From Escherichia coli (lineage in GTDB: Bacteria; Pseudomonadota; Gammaproteobacteria; Enterobacterales; Enterobacteriaceae): a DNA stretch of 64,000 nt. The DNA is taken from the NCBI RefSeq assembly GCF_017348835.2, contig NZ_CP071375.1; one strand, 5' to 3'. Positions 19,444-27,267 of the stretch are shown piece after piece (position 1 is the stretch's first letter; each line of letters opens with the position of its first letter). The notes under the pieces were generated by a model. It searched no databases, had not been told where the DNA came from, and saw only the letters and a program-made list of their open reading frames with translations. The position numbers were made by a program, and so were the translations under genes.

Positions 19444-20427
19444 CTACAGTAAATCTTCAGTCTCACGAATTTCCTGACTGACATCTCTGGTTCCGGATGA
19501 CTGAACTTTACGATACAGGTCGAGAGCCTGTCGGAGATCGACAGGTCTTCCTTCTCCGTAGTGATACATAATGGCCAGGTTATACCAGGCAGTGGCGTCA
19601 TTGCATTCAGCGGCTTTTGTAAACCATTCAAAGGCAGCCTGATAATCTTTCTCAACGCCTTGTCCGTGTTTATACATATAACCGATGTTGACGTAAGCGC
19701 CGACGCTTTCCTGAGCGGCAGCCTTCAGATACCAGTACATCGCTTGCTTATAGTCCTGGTCCACCCCTTCGCCAGCGTTATAATCCCATGCAATTTGAAA
19801 CTGGACGTGCCGATTACCCTGCTGTGCGCTTTTCAAATACCAGAATGCGGCGAGTGTCTCGTTTTGAGCAACGCCTTTTCCGTCTTCATAAAGATCGGCC
19901 AGATTGTTTTGCGCGTCACTATGGCCTTGTAATGCAGCTTGTTTGTACCAGAAAAATGCCAGCGTATAGTCTTGTGCGACTCCGTTGCCATTTCTGTACA
20001 TCCACCCAAGATTATTTTGCGCATAAGACATTCCGCTCTCCGCGGCTATCTGATACCAGGCAACCGCTTCTTTATAGTTGGGGTCTTCTCCACGATCCAG
20101 TATCCAGCCAAGGGCGTTGGAAGCGAAAGTATGGCCTTGTAGGGCAGCTTTTTTCAGCCAGAAGATGGCTTGCTCATTATCTTTATGACGGCTTTTATCC
20201 TCGGTATACTTTTGCCCTAAGGAGTATTGTGCTTCACAATGACCTTGCTCAGCGGCCAGCTTCAGCCAGTAAAAGGCCTTTTCGTCGTCCGGAGAGTCAA
20301 TTGCGCTATCGCGATTATAATAAAACCCAACAATATATTGAGCCTCGCAATCGCTTTTTTCAGCACGTTCGATAATCTTATCTATTGATAAATTATCGCA
20401 GCAACTTGACGTAAAAATCATTATCAT
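19444..20427 (-). CDS. ybeQ: Sel1-repeat (TPR-like) protein YbeQ
   Basis: 327 aa with about seven tandem Sel1-like repeats (AQxxLGxxY...G); no obvious signal peptide. Confidence 0.88.
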   Translation of the reverse strand: MIMIFTSSCCDNLSIDKIIERAEKSDCEAQYIVGFYYNRDSAIDSPDDEKAFYWLKLAAEQGHCEAQYSLGQKYTEDKSRHKDNEQAIFWLKKAALQGHTFASNALGWILDRGEDPNYKEAVAWYQIAAESGMSYAQNNLGWMYRNGNGVAQDYTLAFFWYKQAALQGHSDAQNNLADLYEDGKGVAQNETLAAFWYLKSAQQGNRHVQFQIAWDYNAGEGVDQDYKQAMYWYLKAAAQESVGAYVNIGYMYKHGQGVEKDYQAAFEWFTKAAECNDATAWYNLAIMYHYGEGRPVDLRQALDLYRKVQSSGTRDVSQEIRETEDLL

Positions 20428-20550
20428 TTCCTTATGGTTGCAGATAAAACATATTATATTTTTATGTGTTCCGTTTTTGCGTAAGTCTTATTTTATGCGT
20501 ATTATGTTGTGTCAGAAAAGTATAAATAAATGAGCCTCGTAATGTAGTTT

Positions 20551-20569
20551 ACATTCACTAAATGAATGT
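20551..20569. promoter_or_regulatory. Inverted repeat acattca-N5-tgaatgt just upstream of the ybeR RBS
   Basis: Perfect 7-bp inverted repeat read directly from the sequence in the AT-rich ybeQ/ybeR divergent region. Confidence 0.35.
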
Positions 20570-20584
20570 TTAAGGATAAATTAT

Positions 20585-21292
20585 ATGGACATGGAGTCGC
20601 AAAAAATATTGTTTGCACTTTCCACTCCGATGGAAATACGCAATGAATGCTGTTTACCTTCGCATTCATCCCCCAAAATGTATTTAGGTACATGCTTTTT
20701 TGACCTTTCTTCCTCCTGGGGAATTGATGACCGTGATGACCTGCTGCGCACAATTCACCGAATGATCGATAACGGTCATGCCGCTCGGTTGGCAGGGTTT
20801 TATCACCGCTGGTTTCGTTATTCTCCATGTGAATGGCGTGACTATCTTGCTGAATTAAATGAGCAAGGTCAGGCTTATGCGCAATTTGTCGCCAGCACAG
20901 CCGAATGCTGTGGTGAGGGGGGAATCAAAGCCTGGGATTATGTCCGGATGGGTTTTTTAAGCCGAATGGGCGTACTTAATAACTGGTTGAGTGAAGAAGA
21001 AAGTCTATGGATCCAGTCGCGCATTCATCTACGGGCTCTACGTTATTATAGTAACTGGCGGCAATACTTTGCCGGTTATACCTTTGGTCGGCAATATTGG
21101 CAGTCTCCCGAAGATGATCATCTGCAGTTATTACGCGAAATCTTAGCGCGTAAAGAATACGACGATTCCGGCAATGATATGTTTTATCAATTATTTGCCA
21201 GTGATGATGCGTATTACCCTACCTTGTCCTGGCAACCATTGGCTTACTATTCTGCATGCCCGGAAACGCTTAAGGATATGAGCGACCTATGA
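20585..21292 (+). CDS. ybeR: DUF1266-family protein YbeR
   Basis: 235 aa; paralogue of YbeU (23382..24089) with shared blocks ([18 protein letters not shown]); stop overlaps the djlB start (ATGA). Confidence 0.88.
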
Positions 21293-22716
21293 AAAATTGC
21301 TGGAAGATTCTCGAAATAGAGGAAACGACTGACGTCGATATTATCCGCCGCGCTTATCTGGCGCTGTTACCGTCCTTTCATCCAGAAACCGATCCGCAGG
21401 GTTTTAAACAACTTCGTCAGGCGTATGAGGAGGCGCTACGGATTGCGCAGTCGCCTGCTAAATCTGTTTGGCAACCAGAAGAATATGAGGTAGCAGAACA
21501 TGAAATTCTGCTCGCCTTTCGTGCGTTACTTGCCTCTGATAGCGAACGTTTTCTGCCCTCCGCCTGGCAGCGATTCATTCAGCAATTAAATTATTGCTCG
21601 ATGGAAGAGATTGATGAATTACGCTGGTCGCTGTGCACAATCGCCATGAACACTGCCCATTTATCCTTCGAGTGCGTGGTGTTATTAGCAGAAAGATTGC
21701 GGTGGTTGCAGGAGGAAAACGTCGGGGAAATAGACGAAGAAGAACTGGAATCCTTTTTATATGCCATTGCGAAGGGGAATGTTTTTAACTTCCAGACCAT
21801 TCTGCATCTGCCCGTTGCCGTGCAAAATGACACCATCGATTTTTACCAAATGTTCGCTCGGATTTGGTCATCGTATCCAGAATGGCTGACATTGTATTTA
21901 GCGCAACATCGCGCAGTGATTATCCCCGATGATGCAAAACTGCACAGAAATTTACTCCGCTGGTATAGCGCAGGTCGCCTGGGAATTCCCGAACTCCTGG
22001 ATTACGCCCGGTCGTGGCGGGAAGCTGAATCTGATAATGAAGATGCGCGTTATTATGAATACGCACAACGCGTCTATTGTGGAGAAGGCGAAAGCTTGCT
22101 GGCAGAACTTTGTGACTACTGGCGCGAGTATCCCTCCACCCAGGCGGATGCTTTAATATTGCAATGGTGCCGTCAGCATCGGGTCGATTATTACCCGTTA
22201 GTGGTGATGATGATTGAAGCTCGTGAACTGGTTAACGATCAGGGAAAACCGCTACTTTATATCCCCGGCGACAGCGCCCGTACGCGTTTTCATTTATACG
22301 AAATACTCAGCGATGAAAAACTCTCTGCGCTGGGGCGTTCTCTGGTCGAGATGGTTTTGCACAAAGGACGTAAGCCGCGGATCTCACTCACGCGTGATAC
22401 AGAACATCCCTTATGGCCATTATATTTAGTTGCCAAACAATTAGTGCAGGCCAGCCAACCGACAGAAGAATCATTAATGCCGATTGTGAGCCGCCTTGAT
22501 GCGGAAGATCGTTGTCCACTGGAAGCATTAATTATTCGTCGATTATTAATTCAGGCGGCGAATTTTACCGAGAAGCAAACTGTTGAACCGGAGCCGCAAC
22601 CGCAGCCAATGCCCGTTGACGATGGTGGGCCAGGCTGTCTGGGCATCATTAAAATTATTTTCTATATTTTTATCTTTGCTGGTTTGATAGGGAAAATACT
22701 CCATCTGTTCGGGTGA
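21289..22716 (+). CDS. djlB: J-domain co-chaperone DjlB (HPE variant, C-terminal membrane anchor)
   Basis: 475 aa; N-terminal J-like domain ([33 protein letters not shown]); C-terminal hydrophobic tail ([21 protein letters not shown]). Confidence 0.88.
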
Positions 22717-22725
22717 CAGTCGACG

Positions 22726-23280
22726 TTAATGTGCGGGAAGCCCGGCAAGTAATCTTTCCGCATTTTTGTAATGTTGTTTGGCGGCCAGTTTTAACCATTT
22801 TTGAGATTCATAATGGTTAACATTAATACCTGAGCCATTTCTGTAGATCAAACCTAAAGTATATTGAGCATGAGCATACCCTTGTTCAGCTGCTTCCTTA
22901 TACCAGAGAATTGCTTTACGGGTGTCGGGTTTGACCCCCAGACCTTTGAGGTAGATCCACCCCAGTTTACTTTGCGCGCGTGGATTTTCCTGTTCCGCTG
23001 ATTGCTCATACCAGTATCTCGCCTGTATATAATCCAGTGGTTTACCGTCGCTACCATGAAGATAAAATTCTCCAAGGCGATATTGCGATGTTGAGTGACC
23101 ATGAATCGCGGAAAGCTCCGTGGCTGCCGTGGTGAATGGAAGACTGCCCGGTGAGCTTAAATAATCAAAGGCATAATTCACCATGGCTTTATCACGCAAC
23201 GTTGTTTTCTTGGGTTGGCTAATACAGGTAATTGCTGCAACTATAAAAATTGCGAATATATACATTAATTTTTTATTCAT
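22726..23280 (-). CDS. ybeT: Sel1-repeat protein YbeT with N-terminal signal/anchor sequence
   Basis: 184 aa; hydrophobic N-terminus ([19 protein letters not shown]) followed by Sel1 repeats. Confidence 0.88.
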
Positions 23281-23381
23281 ATGTGAATACTTCGATTTTC
23301 TTTTTATTTTGAAAGCGTCAAGTTTATACTCATCAATAATAAAAAAGTAGTCAGTTAATGCACTTAAGGGATTATTAACAA

Positions 23382-24089
23382 ATGAATAAGGAAGAACAAT
23401 ATCTTCTTTTTGCGCTTTCTGCGCCGATGGAAATACTTAATCAGGGTTGCAAACCCGCGCATGACTCGCCAAAAATGTATACTGGGATAAAAGAATTCGA
23501 TCTCTCATCATCCTGGGGAATAAATAATCGTGATGATTTAATTCAGACTATTTATCAGATGACTGATGATGGTCATGCCAATGATTTAGCTGGCTTATAT
23601 CTGACATGGCATCGCTCTTCCCCTGAAGAGTGGAAAGCATTAATTGCTGGCGGCTCGGAGAGAGGATTGATTTATACCCAATTCGTTGCGCAAACCGCTA
23701 TATGCTGTGGGGAAGGGGGAATCAAAGCCTGGGATTATGTGCGGATGGGGTTTTTGTCGCGGGTTGGTGTACTCAACAAGTGGCTGACGGAAGAAGAGAG
23801 TTTATGGCTGCAATCGCGCGTTTATGTACGAGCTCACCATTACTATCACAGCTGGATGCACTATTTTTCCGCCTATTCGTTAGGGCGTCTCTACTGGCAA
23901 TCTTCTCAGTGCGAAGACAACGCTTCGCTACGCGAGGCGCTAACCCTGTACAAATACGATAGCGCCGGGAGTCGGATGTTCGAAGAGCTGGCAGCGGGAA
24001 GCGACCGTTTCTATGCCACGCTTCCCTGGCAGCCATTAACTGTCCAGCCTGAATGCCCGGTAACGCTTAAGGATGTGAGCAACCTATGA
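23382..24089 (+). CDS. ybeU: DUF1266-family protein YbeU
   Basis: 235 aa; paralogue of YbeR; stop overlaps the djlC start (ATGA). Confidence 0.88.
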
Positions 24090-25537
24090 AAACATGTTGG
24101 CAAATCCTCGAAATTGAAAGCACGACGCAAATAGACATTATCCGCCAGGCTTATCTTGCTCGCTTACCGTTATGTCATCCCGAAACCGATCCGCAAGGGT
24201 TTAAAGCATTACGCCAGGCCTATGAAGAGGCCCTGCGACTGGCGGTAAATCCTGTCGAGGAAGCAGATGATGAAGAAAAAGATGATGCCACTGAGCATGA
24301 AATACTACGTGTATTCAGGGCATTACTGGATTCAGAAAGTGATCGTTTTCAGCCCTCCGCCTGGCAGAAATTTATTCAGCAATTAAATACCTGGAACATG
24401 GAGGATGTCGATCAATTACGCTGGCCGCTGTGTGCAATCGCTATAGAAGCGCGATATCTTTCATTAAATTGTGCTTCTTTGCTGGCAGAGCGTTTGAACT
24501 GGCATTCGTTTAATGACAGCGAAGGAATAGATGAGGAAGAAAGGGAGGCTTTTCTTGAGGCCATTCAGGCTGGTGATTGTTTCGATTTCCTTGGCCTTCT
24601 GGAATATCCCGTTGCGTTGCAGAACCAGACTGTTGAATATTACTTCGCGCTGGAACGTTGCTGCCATTACCATCCTGACTATGTCACTGCGTTTTTGGCG
24701 ATGGAAGGTCCGTGGTTCATTCCTGATGATGCAAAGTTACATCGCAAACTGTTGCGCTGGTACAGCTCGGTGCAAACAGGTATGGCGGAACTCATTCCTG
24801 TTGCCCAACAGTGGCAAACGGAAGAACCAGAAAGCGAAGATGCCCAGTATTACCAGTGTACACAACGTTTGTACTGCGGCGAGGGGGAAAGCCTGCTTGC
24901 CGATCTCTGCGCGTACTGGGGAAGTTACCCATCTACACAAGCCGATAATTTGTTGTTGCAGTGGAGCGCACAACATTGCCCGGATTATTTCGCGTTATTA
25001 GTGATGGTTATCGAAGCGCGGAGCATGGTAGATGCGCAAGGTAAACCGTTGAAATATGTTCCTGGTGAGAGCGCCCGGACGCGTCTGTTATGGGCGGAAA
25101 TTTTACATAGCGGAAAACTATCGCCGTTAGGTCAATCGTTTATTGAGTCGTTATTCTTCAAACGCAAAGCATGGGCGTGGTGGAAATCGAGAGTCGGTAG
25201 CGAGACAGAGCAAGATTCACCGTTACTGGATTTGTATCGGGTAGCGGAACAGGTAGTACTTGAAGCGTTTCCGAAACAAGAGATGCTGGCCCGTCTTAAT
25301 ACAAGGCTGGAAGGTGGAGATGCTCATCCATTAGAGGCCATTATCACCCGGATGCTGTTGACGAAAGTGAAACTCGAGCCGGAGGATGAAGATGTCGATG
25401 AGCCAACACCTGAAAACCATGAAGAAAAAAATGATGAGGATGAAAAACCACAGAGCATTACCAGCATTATCAAAATCAGCTTAACGGTGCTGGTGATAGG
25501 TTATGCTCTCGGCAAAATCGCGATGTTGTTTAGTTGA
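24086..25537 (+). CDS. djlC: J-domain co-chaperone DjlC (HPE variant, C-terminal membrane anchor)
   Basis: 483 aa; N-terminal J-like domain (...[13 protein letters not shown]), acidic linker and C-terminal hydrophobic tail ([22 protein letters not shown]). Confidence 0.88.
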
Positions 25538-25596: not shown

Positions 25597-27267
25597 TTAT
25601 GGGATCTCAATGGCTAAATAAACGCTCGCCCGCCGCCTGACCTCATCGACGCGGGCCATATCGTTTGACTGCAACGCCGCATCAAAATCGGTGATCACCC
25701 GGCCAATCTCTTCTCGCTCGTCACCCAGCGCCCGCGCCCACAACTCTTCCAGTTTGGCTTTAAAGGTACGATTGATGAGCATATCGCGCGGATAAATTTT
25801 CAATGCGGATAACCGCGTCCGACTCTCTTCAATCTGCTGCGCGCTCAATGTTACCGGGCTGTGGTTAATCACTCTGGACTTAATGCTGCCGTCTTCCAGA
25901 AGCACGTCAACTTCAAGCAAACCGTTGATATCATAACTAAAGCGAATATCAATCGACTGATAAGCCCCGGTTTTCTTCAACGGCACATCGAAGGATTCCA
26001 CCAGAATGTTGTTTTTAACTTTGTGGTTTTCTCCCTGATAGACGTTAACCGTAATTGAATCCTGTTCCGGGTGCATGGTTGAATAAGTTTCTACACGCGA
26101 CACGGGCACAGTGGTGTTTCGTTCAATAATCGGCGAGAAAATGCCGGAAACGCCCTGACGGTTAACCTCAACGCCCAACGAGTAAGGGCAAATATCAGTG
26201 AGGATCACTTCTTCAATATCTTCACTGCGTAAGCGGCAGGCAGCCTGGATTGCTGCGCCCAGCGCTACAATGGTGCTCGGATCGTAACTTTGATACGGTA
26301 ATTTGCCAAACAGACGCACGGCGATTCGCTGCACCAGCGGCATTTGTGACGCGCCGCCAACCAGCACCAGACTGTCGATTTGACTCGGCTTCAGACGCGC
26401 ATCGCGCAACGCCTGTTCAATCGGCACTCGCAAGCGATTGAGCAGCGGCAACCACAAATCTTCCAGTTCGTTCTCGTAAAATTCGCATTCCCGCGTTTCA
26501 TCCTGGTACTGCCAGCGAATGTGCATTGGCGATTGATTGCTACATTTTGCCGCTTCCACACAGGCGTACAAGGCTGCCAGTTCACTCTCGTTAAGCGTGG
26601 TCCTGGCGACATCCGCGCGCTTTAAAACGTCATCGACCAACATATGGGTAAAATCTTCGCCACCGAGGAAGTTATCGCCAGCGGAGGCGTGAACTTCAAT
26701 CACCGGCGTGGCGTACTCAAGCACCGTGACGTCAAACGTGCCGCCACCGAGATCAAACACTAGCGAACGGGTATTTTGTTGGGTATGCAGGCCATACGCC
26801 ATCGCAGCTGCTGTGGGTTCATTAATTAAGCGTACCGCATTTAACCCGGCTAACTCCGCTGCTAAACGGGTATGCTTGCGTTGTTCATCGCTGAAATAAG
26901 CCGGAACAGAGATCACCACATCTTTAATCGGACGTTGCAGAAATTCTTCGGCATCTTCTTTTAATGAGCGCAATACCAAAGAGGACAGTTCTGGCGCGTT
27001 AAATGTGTCGCTGCCTAACCGCCAGTTGGTATTACTGCCCATTGCACGTTTAAATAACGCTGCCGTTTTATCCGGATGCGAAGTACGCCGTGATACAGCC
27101 GGTTTTCCGACTAAAATATGATTATTTTCATCCATGCTAATTATGGATGGTGTTAAATATTCACCGAACTTATTTGGAATTAATTGCGCGGCACCGTCTT
27201 TCCAGACGGCAATTAAACTATTGGTAGTACCGAGATCGATACCAATGGCGAGTTCTGCATTATCCAT
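25597..27267 (-). CDS. hscC: Specialised Hsp70-family chaperone HscC
   Basis: 556 aa; Hsp70 ATPase signatures (IGIDLGTTNS, DLGGGTFD); shorter than DnaK. Confidence 0.95.
   Translation of the reverse strand: MDNAELAIGIDLGTTNSLIAVWKDGAAQLIPNKFGEYLTPSIISMDENNHILVGKPAVSRRTSHPDKTAALFKRAMGSNTNWRLGSDTFNAPELSSLVLRSLKEDAEEFLQRPIKDVVISVPAYFSDEQRKHTRLAAELAGLNAVRLINEPTAAAMAYGLHTQQNTRSLVFDLGGGTFDVTVLEYATPVIEVHASAGDNFLGGEDFTHMLVDDVLKRADVARTTLNESELAALYACVEAAKCSNQSPMHIRWQYQDETRECEFYENELEDLWLPLLNRLRVPIEQALRDARLKPSQIDSLVLVGGASQMPLVQRIAVRLFGKLPYQSYDPSTIVALGAAIQAACRLRSEDIEEVILTDICPYSLGVEVNRQGVSGIFSPIIERNTTVPVSRVETYSTMHPEQDSITVNVYQGENHKVKNNILVESFDVPLKKTGAYQSIDIRFSYDINGLLEVDVLLEDGSIKSRVINHSPVTLSAQQIEESRTRLSALKIYPRDMLINRTFKAKLEELWARALGDEREEIGRVITDFDAALQSNDMARVDEVRRRASVYLAIEIP

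What the first reader, a model, noticed from the sequence alone, without database searches (positions are those of the whole stretch)
21289..25537. Both J-proteins carry HPE instead of HPD and a C-terminal hydrophobic tail anchor
DjlB (...[13 protein letters not shown]...) and DjlC (...[13 protein letters not shown]...) have Glu where canonical J-domains have the Asp of HPD. Both end in a roughly 20-residue hydrophobic segment preceded by a Pro/acidic linker, the signature of tail-anchored inner-membrane proteins. Each J gene starts in the stop codon of its upstream DUF1266 gene (ATGA at 21289-21292 and 24086-24089), which implies coupled translation and 1:1 stoichiometry.
Basis: partly seen in the sequence, partly recalled or inferred. 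Interest (0 to 1): 0.55.

Follow-up and report, generated by a model that had tools for sequence, protein, structure and literature searches.

The report
Known E. coli DjlB/DjlC co-chaperones
These are the already described E. coli membrane-tethered helper proteins DjlB and DjlC of the specialised Hsp70 chaperone HscC; their HPE motif and tail anchor are published, and the only possibly new point is that a small unknown protein (DUF1266) is always encoded just upstream with an overlapping stop/start.

Summary
Both J-proteins carry HPE (21379-21387 and 24176-24184). Both end in one hydrophobic helix after an acidic or Pro-rich linker. Both ATG starts overlap the TGA of the upstream DUF1266 gene (21289-21292, 24086-24089).

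The window is the E. coli chromosome, with genes ybeQ-ybeR-djlB-ybeT-ybeU-djlC-hscC. The two headline features are already published:
- HPE in DjlB/DjlC: PMC10410713 and PMC13254874.
- Tail-anchored topology, with membrane insertion shown for DjlC: Peschke 2018, cited in PMC8215388.

What I add:
- The Glu is invariant. It is present in 113 of 113 close homologues and 117 of 117 cluster representatives, with no HPD, down to 15% identity.
- HscC keeps the DnaK residues that bind the Asp (R167, Q378) but always has D481N, D477S and a loop deletion.
- C-terminal membrane anchoring holds across the family, and the single-span tail is the short enterobacterial variant.
- In every one of about 80 loci from Enterobacterales, Gilliamella and Pseudomonas the order is DUF1266, then J, then convergent hscC. 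The DUF1266 stop overlaps the J start by 4 nt in 77 cases and 1 nt in 7.

This makes DUF1266 a likely undescribed third component of the HscC system. The overlap supports translational coupling but does not establish 1:1 stoichiometry.

The parts
19444..20427 (-). ybeQ, a Sel1/TPR-like repeat gene divergent from ybeR-djlB. It belongs to the Escherichia-specific module and has no N-terminal hydrophobic segment.
20585..21292 (+). ybeR, a DUF1266 protein (235 aa) and first gene of the ybeR-djlB pair.
   Evidence: 59% identical to YbeU
21289..21292 (+). ATGA junction: the djlB ATG overlaps the ybeR TGA.
   Evidence: conserved in related loci
21289..22716 (+). djlB, a class C J-domain protein (475 aa).
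21379..21387 (+). DjlB HPE codons (CAT CCA GAA), residues 31-33.
22633..22713 (+). DjlB C-terminal hydrophobic tail anchor (residues about 449-475).
22726..23280 (-). ybeT, a Sel1/TPR repeat gene with an N-terminal hydrophobic segment. It is convergent with djlB and divergent from ybeU.
23382..24089 (+). ybeU, a DUF1266 protein (235 aa) and first gene of the ybeU-djlC operon.
   Evidence: PF06889, E 1.4e-44; all-alpha model, pLDDT 90; operon listing in PMC5797941
24086..24089 (+). ATGA junction: the djlC ATG overlaps the ybeU TGA.
24086..25537 (+). djlC, the co-chaperone of HscC (483 aa). Layout: J-domain 1-57, disordered 58-69, alpha-solenoid 72-427, disordered acidic linker 431-457, helix 458-482.
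24176..24184 (+). DjlC HPE codons (CAT CCC GAA), residues 31-33.
25457..25531 (+). DjlC C-terminal tail-anchor helix (residues 458-482).
25597..27267 (-). hscC, the specialised Hsp70 (556 aa), convergent with djlC. It is the partner of both J-proteins.

Best explanation
The interval holds two paralogous two-gene units, ybeR-djlB and ybeU-djlC, next to hscC in the E. coli chromosome.

DjlB and DjlC are class C J-domain co-chaperones dedicated to the specialised Hsp70 HscC. Each has four parts:
- a short N-terminal J-domain whose catalytic loop reads HPE instead of HPD;
- a central all-helical, TPR-like solenoid (Pfam DjlB_C_2nd);
- a disordered acidic or Pro-rich linker;
- a single C-terminal transmembrane helix that tail-anchors the protein, leaving the J-domain on the cytoplasmic face of the inner membrane.

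From that position the J-domain recruits HscC and stimulates its ATPase. This has been shown in vitro for DjlC only.

Inferred: Glu33 plays the role of DnaJ Asp35 towards the conserved Arg146 and Gln341 of HscC (DnaK R167 and Q378). The one-carbon-longer side chain is fixed because the HscC side of the interface is rewired (D481N, D477S, loop 208-211 deleted). This contributes to the exclusive DjlB/C-HscC pairing.

Inferred: the upstream DUF1266 protein (YbeR, YbeU) is made from the same mRNA. The J gene is translated by ribosomes terminating on the overlapping TGA, and the DUF1266 protein acts as a dedicated partner of its cognate J-protein, as a subunit, adaptor or regulator.
For: Identity:
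- The interval is 100% identical to E. coli PE164 with RefSeq names ybeR, djlB, ybeU, djlC and hscC.

J-domain:
- A profile of the N-termini hits 29 PDB sequences, all but one of them named as DnaJ/Hsp40-family proteins, including DnaJ in 5NRO, with E aligned to the D of HPD.
- The AlphaFold model has helices at 16-29 and 36-54 flanking HPE.

Selection on the Glu:
- HPE is present in 113 of 113 N-terminally complete homologues.
- Among 117 representatives of 50%-identity clusters there are 107 HPE, 9 NPE, 1 HPPE and 0 HPD.
- The Glu is invariant in an alignment that reaches 15% identity.
- The Glu codon alternates between GAA (56) and GAG (28) in 84 genes.

HscC side of the interface:
- In 73 neighbouring HscC orthologues R167, Q378, L391 and P419 are invariant.
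- In the same set residues 208-211 are always deleted, and D477S and K414R are always present; D481N is present in 72 of 73.

Membrane anchor:
- Each J-protein has one hydrophobic window, at the C-terminus.
- The model shows helix 458-482 after a disordered linker.
- 84 of 85 family members in the fetched loci have C-terminal membrane helices.
- DjlC membrane insertion and DjlC stimulation of the HscC ATPase are reported in PMC8215388, citing Peschke 2018 and Kluck 2002.

DUF1266 link:
- All 82 fetched gammaproteobacterial loci have DUF1266 followed by J, and in 80 of them a convergent Hsp70 gene was also found.
- The junction overlaps by 4 nt in 77 cases and by 1 nt in 7, out of 84.
- The YbeU subfamily has the same taxonomic range as the J-proteins.
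- In a recombinant single-module E. coli strain the DUF1266-J pair is kept together.
- ybeU-djlC is listed as one operon (PMC5797941).

Shared partner:
- DjlB and DjlC are 75% identical in the J-domain but 51% in the solenoid. This fits one shared HscC and diverged partners or clients.
Against: - No experiment here or in the searched literature links DUF1266 physically or functionally to DjlB/C or HscC.
- Distant HPE J-proteins occur without a DUF1266 neighbour. One Salmonella-type paralogue also lacks it.
- The residues that bind the Asp in DnaK are unchanged in HscC, so the need for Glu is not explained by a simple compensating substitution.
- The loci were retrieved with an HPExDP pattern and are phylogenetically clustered, with many Pseudomonas. 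They are therefore not independent and cannot be used to count HPD variants.
- DjlB has not been tested biochemically.
- All of these proteins were below the proteomic detection limit in E. coli (PMC8215388).
Confidence: 0.8

Rival explanations
1. HPE is a functionally neutral, conservative variant of HPD that was frozen by descent. Glu and Asp are interchangeable at this position, and the specificity for HscC comes entirely from other J-domain and HscC residues.
For: - HscC keeps R167 and Q378, the DnaK partners of Asp35.
- PMC13254874 calls HPE the only tolerated replacement.
- Other interface changes exist that could carry the specificity. DnaJ K26 and R27 are lost, the loop after HPE is 7 residues shorter, and the HscC 208-211 loop is deleted (PMC8215388).
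Against: There are no Asp variants among 113 homologues and 117 cluster representatives spanning down to 15% identity. E to D needs only one third-position transversion, and the same codon shows GAA/GAG turnover. A neutral site would have drifted.
Confidence: 0.2
2. The DUF1266 protein is a CbpM-like specific inhibitor or modulator. It binds the J-domain of its cognate DjlB/C and blocks HscC access until a signal releases it.
For: - There is a precedent in E. coli. [quoted passage not shown]
- DUF1266 is strictly co-encoded with the J gene.
Against: - CbpM lies downstream of cbpA, whereas DUF1266 lies upstream.
- No binding data exist.
Confidence: 0.12
3. The DUF1266 protein is the dedicated client of the system: a protein that needs HscC-DjlB/C for folding, assembly or membrane delivery.
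For: - Specialised Hsp70 systems have few clients, as in HscA/HscB-IscU (PMC8215388).
- Synteny is conserved.
Against: - YbeU is predicted to be a compact, confidently folded all-alpha domain with pLDDT 90.
- It has no hydrophobic segment.
- Nothing else about the sequence or the model suggests a folding problem.
Confidence: 0.12
4. The ATGA overlaps are ordinary operon compaction with no consequence for relative protein amounts. The J genes are translated mainly from their own ribosome-binding sites.
For: - Overlaps of 1-4 nt are frequent. Three other 1-nt overlaps occur within 15 kb of this window.
- GGAG or AAGGA-like motifs lie 11-13 nt upstream of the J starts.
Against: - The overlap is kept in 84 of 84 junctions across three bacterial orders, although the flanking proteins have diverged to 25-40% identity.
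- The SD-like motifs are spaced further from the start than is optimal.
Confidence: 0.2

Closest known systems
E. coli K-12 DjlB (YbeS) and DjlC (YbeV, Hsc56), co-chaperones of HscC (Kluck et al. 2002; Peschke et al. 2018)
   Same: These are the same genes. The locus shares order, lengths (475 and 483 aa) and RefSeq names, at about 98% DNA identity to K-12. HPE, HscC specificity and the tail anchor are all described for them (PMC8215388, PMC10410713, PMC13254874).
   Different: Nothing differs in the proteins. The literature searched does not mention the DUF1266 genes or the conserved overlap.
DnaJ J-domain bound to DnaK (PDB 5NRO)
   Same: Both have the helix II-loop-helix III arrangement, with His, Pro and an acidic residue in the loop. 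R22, K48 and K51 of DnaJ have equivalents. DnaK R167, Q378, L391 and P419 are conserved in HscC.
   Different: DjlB/C have Glu in place of Asp35, lack K26 and R27, and have a 7-residue shorter loop after the motif. HscC lacks loop 208-211 and has D477S and D481N. DnaJ does not stimulate HscC (PMC8215388).
HscB-HscA, the other specialised Hsp70 pair of E. coli
   Same: Both are a dedicated class C J-protein with an exclusive Hsp70 partner, encoded side by side and independent of GrpE (PMC8215388).
   Different: HscB is soluble, keeps HPD and delivers a known client (IscU). DjlB/C are membrane-anchored, use HPE and have no known client.
DjlA, the other membrane-bound J-protein of E. coli
   Same: Both place a J-domain on the cytoplasmic face of the inner membrane (established knowledge of DjlA; PMC8215388 lists it as class C).
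   Different: DjlA is anchored by an N-terminal helix, has a C-terminal HPD J-domain and works with DnaK. DjlB/C have the opposite polarity (N-terminal J, C-terminal tail anchor) and work with HscC.
CbpA-CbpM operon pair
   Same: A small dedicated protein is co-encoded with a J-protein in one operon, conserved in gammaproteobacteria (PMC8215388).
   Different: The gene order is reversed and the folds are unrelated. The function of DUF1266 is unknown.

Membership tests
J-domain proteins (Pfam PF00226, class C) | Sequence and fold of helix II-loop-helix III recognisable as a J-domain | tested here: met
   A profile of 18 N-termini hits 29 PDB sequences, nearly all named DnaJ/Hsp40 J-domain proteins, with best E 1.1e-6 and DnaJ 5nro_B at 9.8e-6. 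The model has helices at 16-29 and 36-54. The single-sequence Pfam hit is weak, E 0.036.
J-domain proteins (Pfam PF00226, class C) | Invariant His-Pro-Asp tripeptide in the loop | tested here: not met
   The tripeptide is HPE in both proteins and throughout the family, with 0 HPD in 230 sequences. The literature accepts HPE as the one functional variant (PMC13254874).
J-domain proteins (Pfam PF00226, class C) | Stimulates the ATPase of a partner Hsp70 | not testable with these tools
   Reported for DjlC with HscC (Kluck 2002, cited in PMC8215388). Never tested for DjlB.
DjlB/DjlC family (Pfam PF27158, DjlB_C_2nd) | Central helical domain matching PF27158 | tested here: met
   Precomputed PF27158 hits are recorded on nearly all homologues and on distant relatives. 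The model shows an alpha-solenoid at 72-427.
Tail-anchored inner-membrane proteins | A single transmembrane segment within about 30 residues of the C-terminus, with no signal peptide and no other membrane segment | tested here: met
   The only Kyte-Doolittle windows >=1.6 are DjlB 446-475 and DjlC 457-483. Helix 458-482 follows a disordered linker.
Tail-anchored inner-membrane proteins | Demonstrated post-translational membrane insertion with the N-terminal domain in the cytoplasm | not testable with these tools
   Shown for DjlC (Peschke 2018, cited in PMC8215388). DjlB is only predicted (PMC5525287, PMC8215388).
Translationally coupled gene pairs (termination-reinitiation) | The stop codon of the upstream gene overlaps or abuts the start codon of the downstream gene on one mRNA | tested here: met
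   ATGA is present at 21289-21292 and 24086-24089. The overlap is 4 nt in 77 and 1 nt in 7 of 84 related junctions. ybeU-djlC is listed as an operon (PMC5797941).
Translationally coupled gene pairs (termination-reinitiation) | Downstream translation depends on upstream translation, and the stoichiometry is fixed | not testable with these tools
   No ribosome profiling or reporter data are available. The proteins are below the detection limit in proteomics (PMC8215388).
DUF1266 (Pfam PF06889) | Match to the family profile over its full length | tested here: met
   YbeU residues 41-216 match model positions 2-175 of 175, E 1.4e-44. YbeR is 59% identical to YbeU.
HscC-type Hsp70 | Length of 550-580 aa, with NBD deletions that include the loop carrying DnaK D211 | tested here: met
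   The protein is 556 aa. Residues 208-211 are deleted in it and in 73 orthologues. This matches the description in PMC8215388.

The most novel reading that the evidence does not exclude
The DUF1266 proteins (YbeR, YbeU) are an obligatory and so far unrecognised third component of the HscC chaperone system in gammaproteobacteria. Each is made by coupled translation with its cognate HPE J-protein and binds that J-protein's solenoid domain, defining what the membrane-tethered HscC machine acts on. The invariant Glu of HPE is a true specificity switch matched to the D481N rewiring of HscC.
Probability: 0.4. Interest if true: 0.55.

Novelty: already known. Interest (0 to 1): 0.3.

Why it matters
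HscC is the least understood of the three bacterial Hsp70s, and no client or physiological role is established beyond Cd2+ and UV sensitivity.

The strict co-encoding of a DUF1266 protein with every HPE J-protein next to hscC, across Enterobacterales, Gilliamella and Pseudomonas, gives a concrete and cheap lead. It points to a candidate partner, regulator or client that could make the function of the HscC system testable.

The absolute conservation of Glu also offers a clean natural case for asking how one methylene group in the J-domain loop contributes to Hsp70-partner specificity.

Tried and rejected
- Anti-phage defence: no meaningful PADLOC hit for any of the seven proteins. Rejected.
- NCBIfam: no curated family for the J or DUF1266 proteins.
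- Fold of the DjlC body: Foldseek against the PDB found only weak TPR-like matches, all with E > 0.05.
- DUF1266 or Sel1 fused to the long (about 890 aa) relatives: their C-terminal halves do not match YbeR, YbeU, YbeQ or YbeT. They carry a DUF805-like membrane domain instead.
- A simple compensating change in HscC for Asp to Glu: rejected, because R167 and Q378 are invariant.
- Promoter and terminator scans gave fewer sites than shuffled controls and were not used.
- The Kluck 2002 paper is not held, so its content is cited only through reviews.
- A fused YbeU-DjlC structure prediction was considered.
Full report
**Observation.** The window is E. coli chromosome. The 7.9-kb stretch around the finding is 100% identical to strain PE164 and 98-99% identical to thousands of other genomes. 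RefSeq annotates it as ybeQ(-), ybeR(+), djlB(+), ybeT(-), ybeU(+), djlC(+), hscC(-).

The ORF list gives ybeR 20585-21292, djlB 21289-22716, ybeU 23382-24089 and djlC 24086-25537. Both quoted peptides are present, with HPE at residues 31-33 of each J-protein (nt 21379-21387 and 24176-24184). ATGA is read at 21289-21292 and 24086-24089.

Each J-protein has exactly one strongly hydrophobic window, at the extreme C-terminus: DjlB 446-475 (Kyte-Doolittle peak 2.39) and DjlC 457-483 (peak 1.99). In both it follows a stretch rich in Pro and acidic residues. YbeU is a full-length DUF1266 domain, E 1.4e-44.

**What the J-proteins are.** Single-sequence Pfam barely detects the J-domain, E 0.036. A profile of 18 family N-termini does much better. 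It hits 29 PDB sequences, all but one named as DnaJ/Hsp40-family proteins, including E. coli DnaJ in the DnaK complex 5NRO and CbpA. The Glu aligns to the Asp of HPD.

An AlphaFold model of DjlC (mean pLDDT 83) shows:
- helices at 4-8, 16-29 and 36-54;
- a disordered acidic stretch at 58-69;
- an all-helical solenoid at 72-427;
- a disordered linker at 431-457;
- a terminal helix at 458-482.

The solenoid has only weak TPR-like neighbours in the PDB. It corresponds to the recent Pfam family PF27158, DjlB_C_2nd.

**What is already published.**
- PMC10410713 (PNAS 2023) counts 2,921 HPE J-domains, about 1% of all, and names DjlB and DjlC as examples.
- PMC13254874 (2026) states that HPE is the only tolerated replacement of HPD and is found in DjlB and DjlC, which work with HscC.
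- PMC8215388 (2021) states that only DjlC, and not DnaJ, CbpA or HscB, stimulates the HscC ATPase. [quoted passage not shown] It also states that hscC and djlB djlC deletions are Cd2+-sensitive, and that HscC lacks a loop containing the J-contact D211.
- PMC5525287 lists the DjlB tail among predicted E. coli tail anchors.
- PMC5797941 lists ybeU-djlC as one H-NS/SlyA-controlled operon.

The two headline features of the finding are therefore textbook-level for this system.

**How conserved is the Glu?**
- All 113 N-terminally complete homologues from a 5.8-billion-protein search have HPE at residues 31-33.
- A profile search of 1.84 billion cluster representatives found 6,727 relatives. Among the 117 listed representatives that include the N-terminus there are 107 HPE, 9 NPE, 1 HPPE and no HPD.
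- In an alignment reaching 15% identity, the invariant columns are W5, L8, I19, Y23, H31, P32, E33, P36, G38, F39, R43, A45 and W139.
- In 84 distinct genes the Glu codon is GAA 56 times and GAG 28 times.

The third position of the Glu codon therefore changes, but never to the T or C that would give Asp. This argues for selection on Glu rather than drift. The loci were retrieved with an HPExDP pattern, so they are used for codon turnover only and not for counting variants.

**The HscC side.** I aligned HscC, and 73 HscC orthologues that sit next to these J genes, with DnaK.
- The published DnaJ-HPD contacts are all invariant: R167 and Q378 for Asp35, L391 for His33, P419 for Pro34.
- Residues 208-211 are always deleted.
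- D477 is always Ser, K414 always Arg, and D481 is Asn in 72 of 73.

In DnaK, D481 contacts R167 and I168 (PMC8215388). On the J side, DnaJ K26 and R27 are lost and the loop after the motif is 7 residues shorter.

My inference is that the Arg which receives the acidic residue sits in a changed environment in HscC, with a neutral Asn in place of D481, and that the longer Glu is matched to it. This is inference and has not been shown.

**The membrane anchor in family context.** Most relatives are about 880-930 aa. They have 2-3 hydrophobic helices near the C-terminus, matching DUF805. Of 85 J-proteins in the fetched loci, 84 have C-terminal membrane helices. Twelve have just one, and these are the short Escherichia, Klebsiella and Salmonella-type forms. 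Membrane tethering is therefore ancestral, and the single tail anchor is the truncated enterobacterial version.

**The DUF1266 coupling.** This is the part not found in the literature. Only one unrelated paper contains the word DUF1266, and none links it with HscC.

A scan of one genome per species found 412 loci encoding relatives. The best 78 come from Escherichia, Klebsiella, Pragia, Limnobaculum, Brenneria, Pectobacterium, Yersinia, Rahnella, Budvicia, Leminorella, Gilliamella and Pseudomonas.

In every one of these loci, and in four metagenomic contigs, a DUF1266 gene is followed on the same strand by the J gene. A convergent Hsp70 gene of HscC type follows in all but three loci (L031, L079, L081). 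After fixing the J starts by the conserved N-terminus, the DUF1266 stop overlaps the J start by 4 nt in 77 junctions and by 1 nt in 7, out of 84. There are no exceptions.

Over the same set the proteins have diverged to 25-40% identity. The YbeU-type DUF1266 subfamily has the same taxonomic range as the J-proteins.

The Sel1 genes ybeQ and ybeT occur only in Escherichia.

Outside the gammaproteobacteria the picture is mixed:
- Two distant HPE J-proteins lie beside an HscC-sized Hsp70 without DUF1266.
- TPR-fused relatives have neither neighbour.
- One Salmonella-type locus has three J paralogues. Two carry the 4-nt-overlapping DUF1266 gene and one does not.

**Interpretation.** The conserved overlap, together with SD-like motifs spaced further from the start than is optimal, fits termination-reinitiation coupling.

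The most economical reading is that DUF1266 is a dedicated partner of the J-protein. DjlB and DjlC are 75% identical in the J-domain but only 51% in the solenoid. YbeR and YbeU are 59% identical. This is consistent with one shared HscC and two diverged cognate pairs produced by duplication of a module.

The alternatives remain open: a CbpM-like inhibitor, a client, or mere operon compaction. They are listed with the tests that would separate them.

**Population context.** The ybeQ-djlC stretch has a GC content of 0.41-0.48, against 0.51-0.54 in the flanks, and is H-NS-silenced (PMC5797941). Among 5,426 complete E. coli genomes, at least 80% of the query is present as follows:

| Query | Genomes |
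|---|---|
| hscC | 4,376 |
| ybeU-djlC | 4,268 |
| ybeR-djlB | 3,707 |

About 1,020 genomes lack all three. Strain LR-31 has a single hybrid ybeR-djlC module that is frameshifted. The cluster is therefore an accessory module that decays in some lineages.

**Verdict.** However, HPE and the tail anchor are already known for these well-annotated E. coli genes. The one element with some novelty is the universally conserved, overlapping DUF1266 gene, which nominates an uncharacterised third player in the HscC system.

- Interest: 0.3.
- Novelty: already known.
- Most novel reading: DUF1266 as an obligate HscC-system component, with Glu as a specificity switch. Probability about 0.4, interest if true about 0.55.

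Noticed in passing
proteins P0215, P0220, P0242, P0244, P0245, P0246, P0248, P0261, P0264; loci L084, L085: Distant relatives of the DjlB/C family carry NPE(D/E)DPEGF, so the His of the J-domain motif is Asn. They are 690-1,260 aa and fused to TPR repeats, with no membrane segment. The one NPE context examined (P0245, L085) has no DUF1266 or Hsp70 neighbour, and nor does a comparable TPR-fused HPE relative (P0204, L084). H-to-Q changes abolish J-domain function in other systems, so these may be J-like domains that no longer drive an Hsp70.
   Followed up: partly
loci L016, L018, L019, L026, L028 and many other Pseudomonas loci: In Pseudomonas the 3' end of the J gene overlaps the 3' end of the convergent hscC gene by 4 or 7 nt. 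In E. coli the gap is 59 nt.
   Followed up: no
window 19500-25000: The ybeQ-djlC stretch has a GC content of 0.41-0.48, against 0.51-0.54 in the flanking leuS and gltL regions. ybeT and ybeU-djlC are reported as H-NS-repressed and SlyA-activated (PMC5797941). About 19% of complete E. coli genomes lack the whole cluster.
   Followed up: partly
locus L089 (E. coli LR-31, NZ_AP027520.1): Some E. coli strains carry a single hybrid module, ybeQ(pseudo)-ybeR-djlC(frameshifted)-hscC. It apparently arose by recombination between the two paralogous modules. About 560-670 genomes have hscC and ybeU-djlC but not a complete ybeR-djlB.
   Followed up: partly
window 22726-23280 (-) and 19444-20427 (-): The Sel1-repeat protein YbeT has an N-terminal hydrophobic segment (residues 2-23, Kyte-Doolittle 2.0), suggesting export or a signal anchor. 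Its paralogue YbeQ has none. The two are only about 31% identical, and neither gene was found in the non-Escherichia loci fetched.
   Followed up: no
loci L002-L083; proteins P0129-P0152: The common form of the family is about 880-930 aa, with a DUF805-like C-terminal domain of 2-3 membrane helices. The 475-483 aa tail-anchored E. coli proteins are a truncated lineage-specific form.
   Followed up: partly
locus L090 (GCA_010723345.1, same holA-lptE-leuS-ybeL site): A Salmonella-type genome carries three J paralogues at the same chromosomal site. Two are tandem DUF1266-J pairs with 4-nt overlaps and no Sel1 genes between them. The third is a 458-aa HPE J gene without DUF1266.
   Followed up: no
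AFDB entries A0A2X3M2D5 and A0A077ZGN2: A 627-aa E. coli entry named 'Hsc56 co-chaperone of HscC' is 97% identical to YbeU over all 235 YbeU residues, which suggests a ybeU-djlC fusion from a frameshift at the overlapping junction. A 932-aa Trichuris trichiura 'DnaJ-like' entry is 95% identical to E. coli YbeU, most likely bacterial contamination of the worm assembly.
   Followed up: no
window 15479, 29129, 29803: Other same-strand gene pairs in the window overlap by 1 nt: holA/lptE, gltL/gltK and gltK/gltJ. Stop/start overlaps are therefore common here and not remarkable in a single genome.
   Followed up: no
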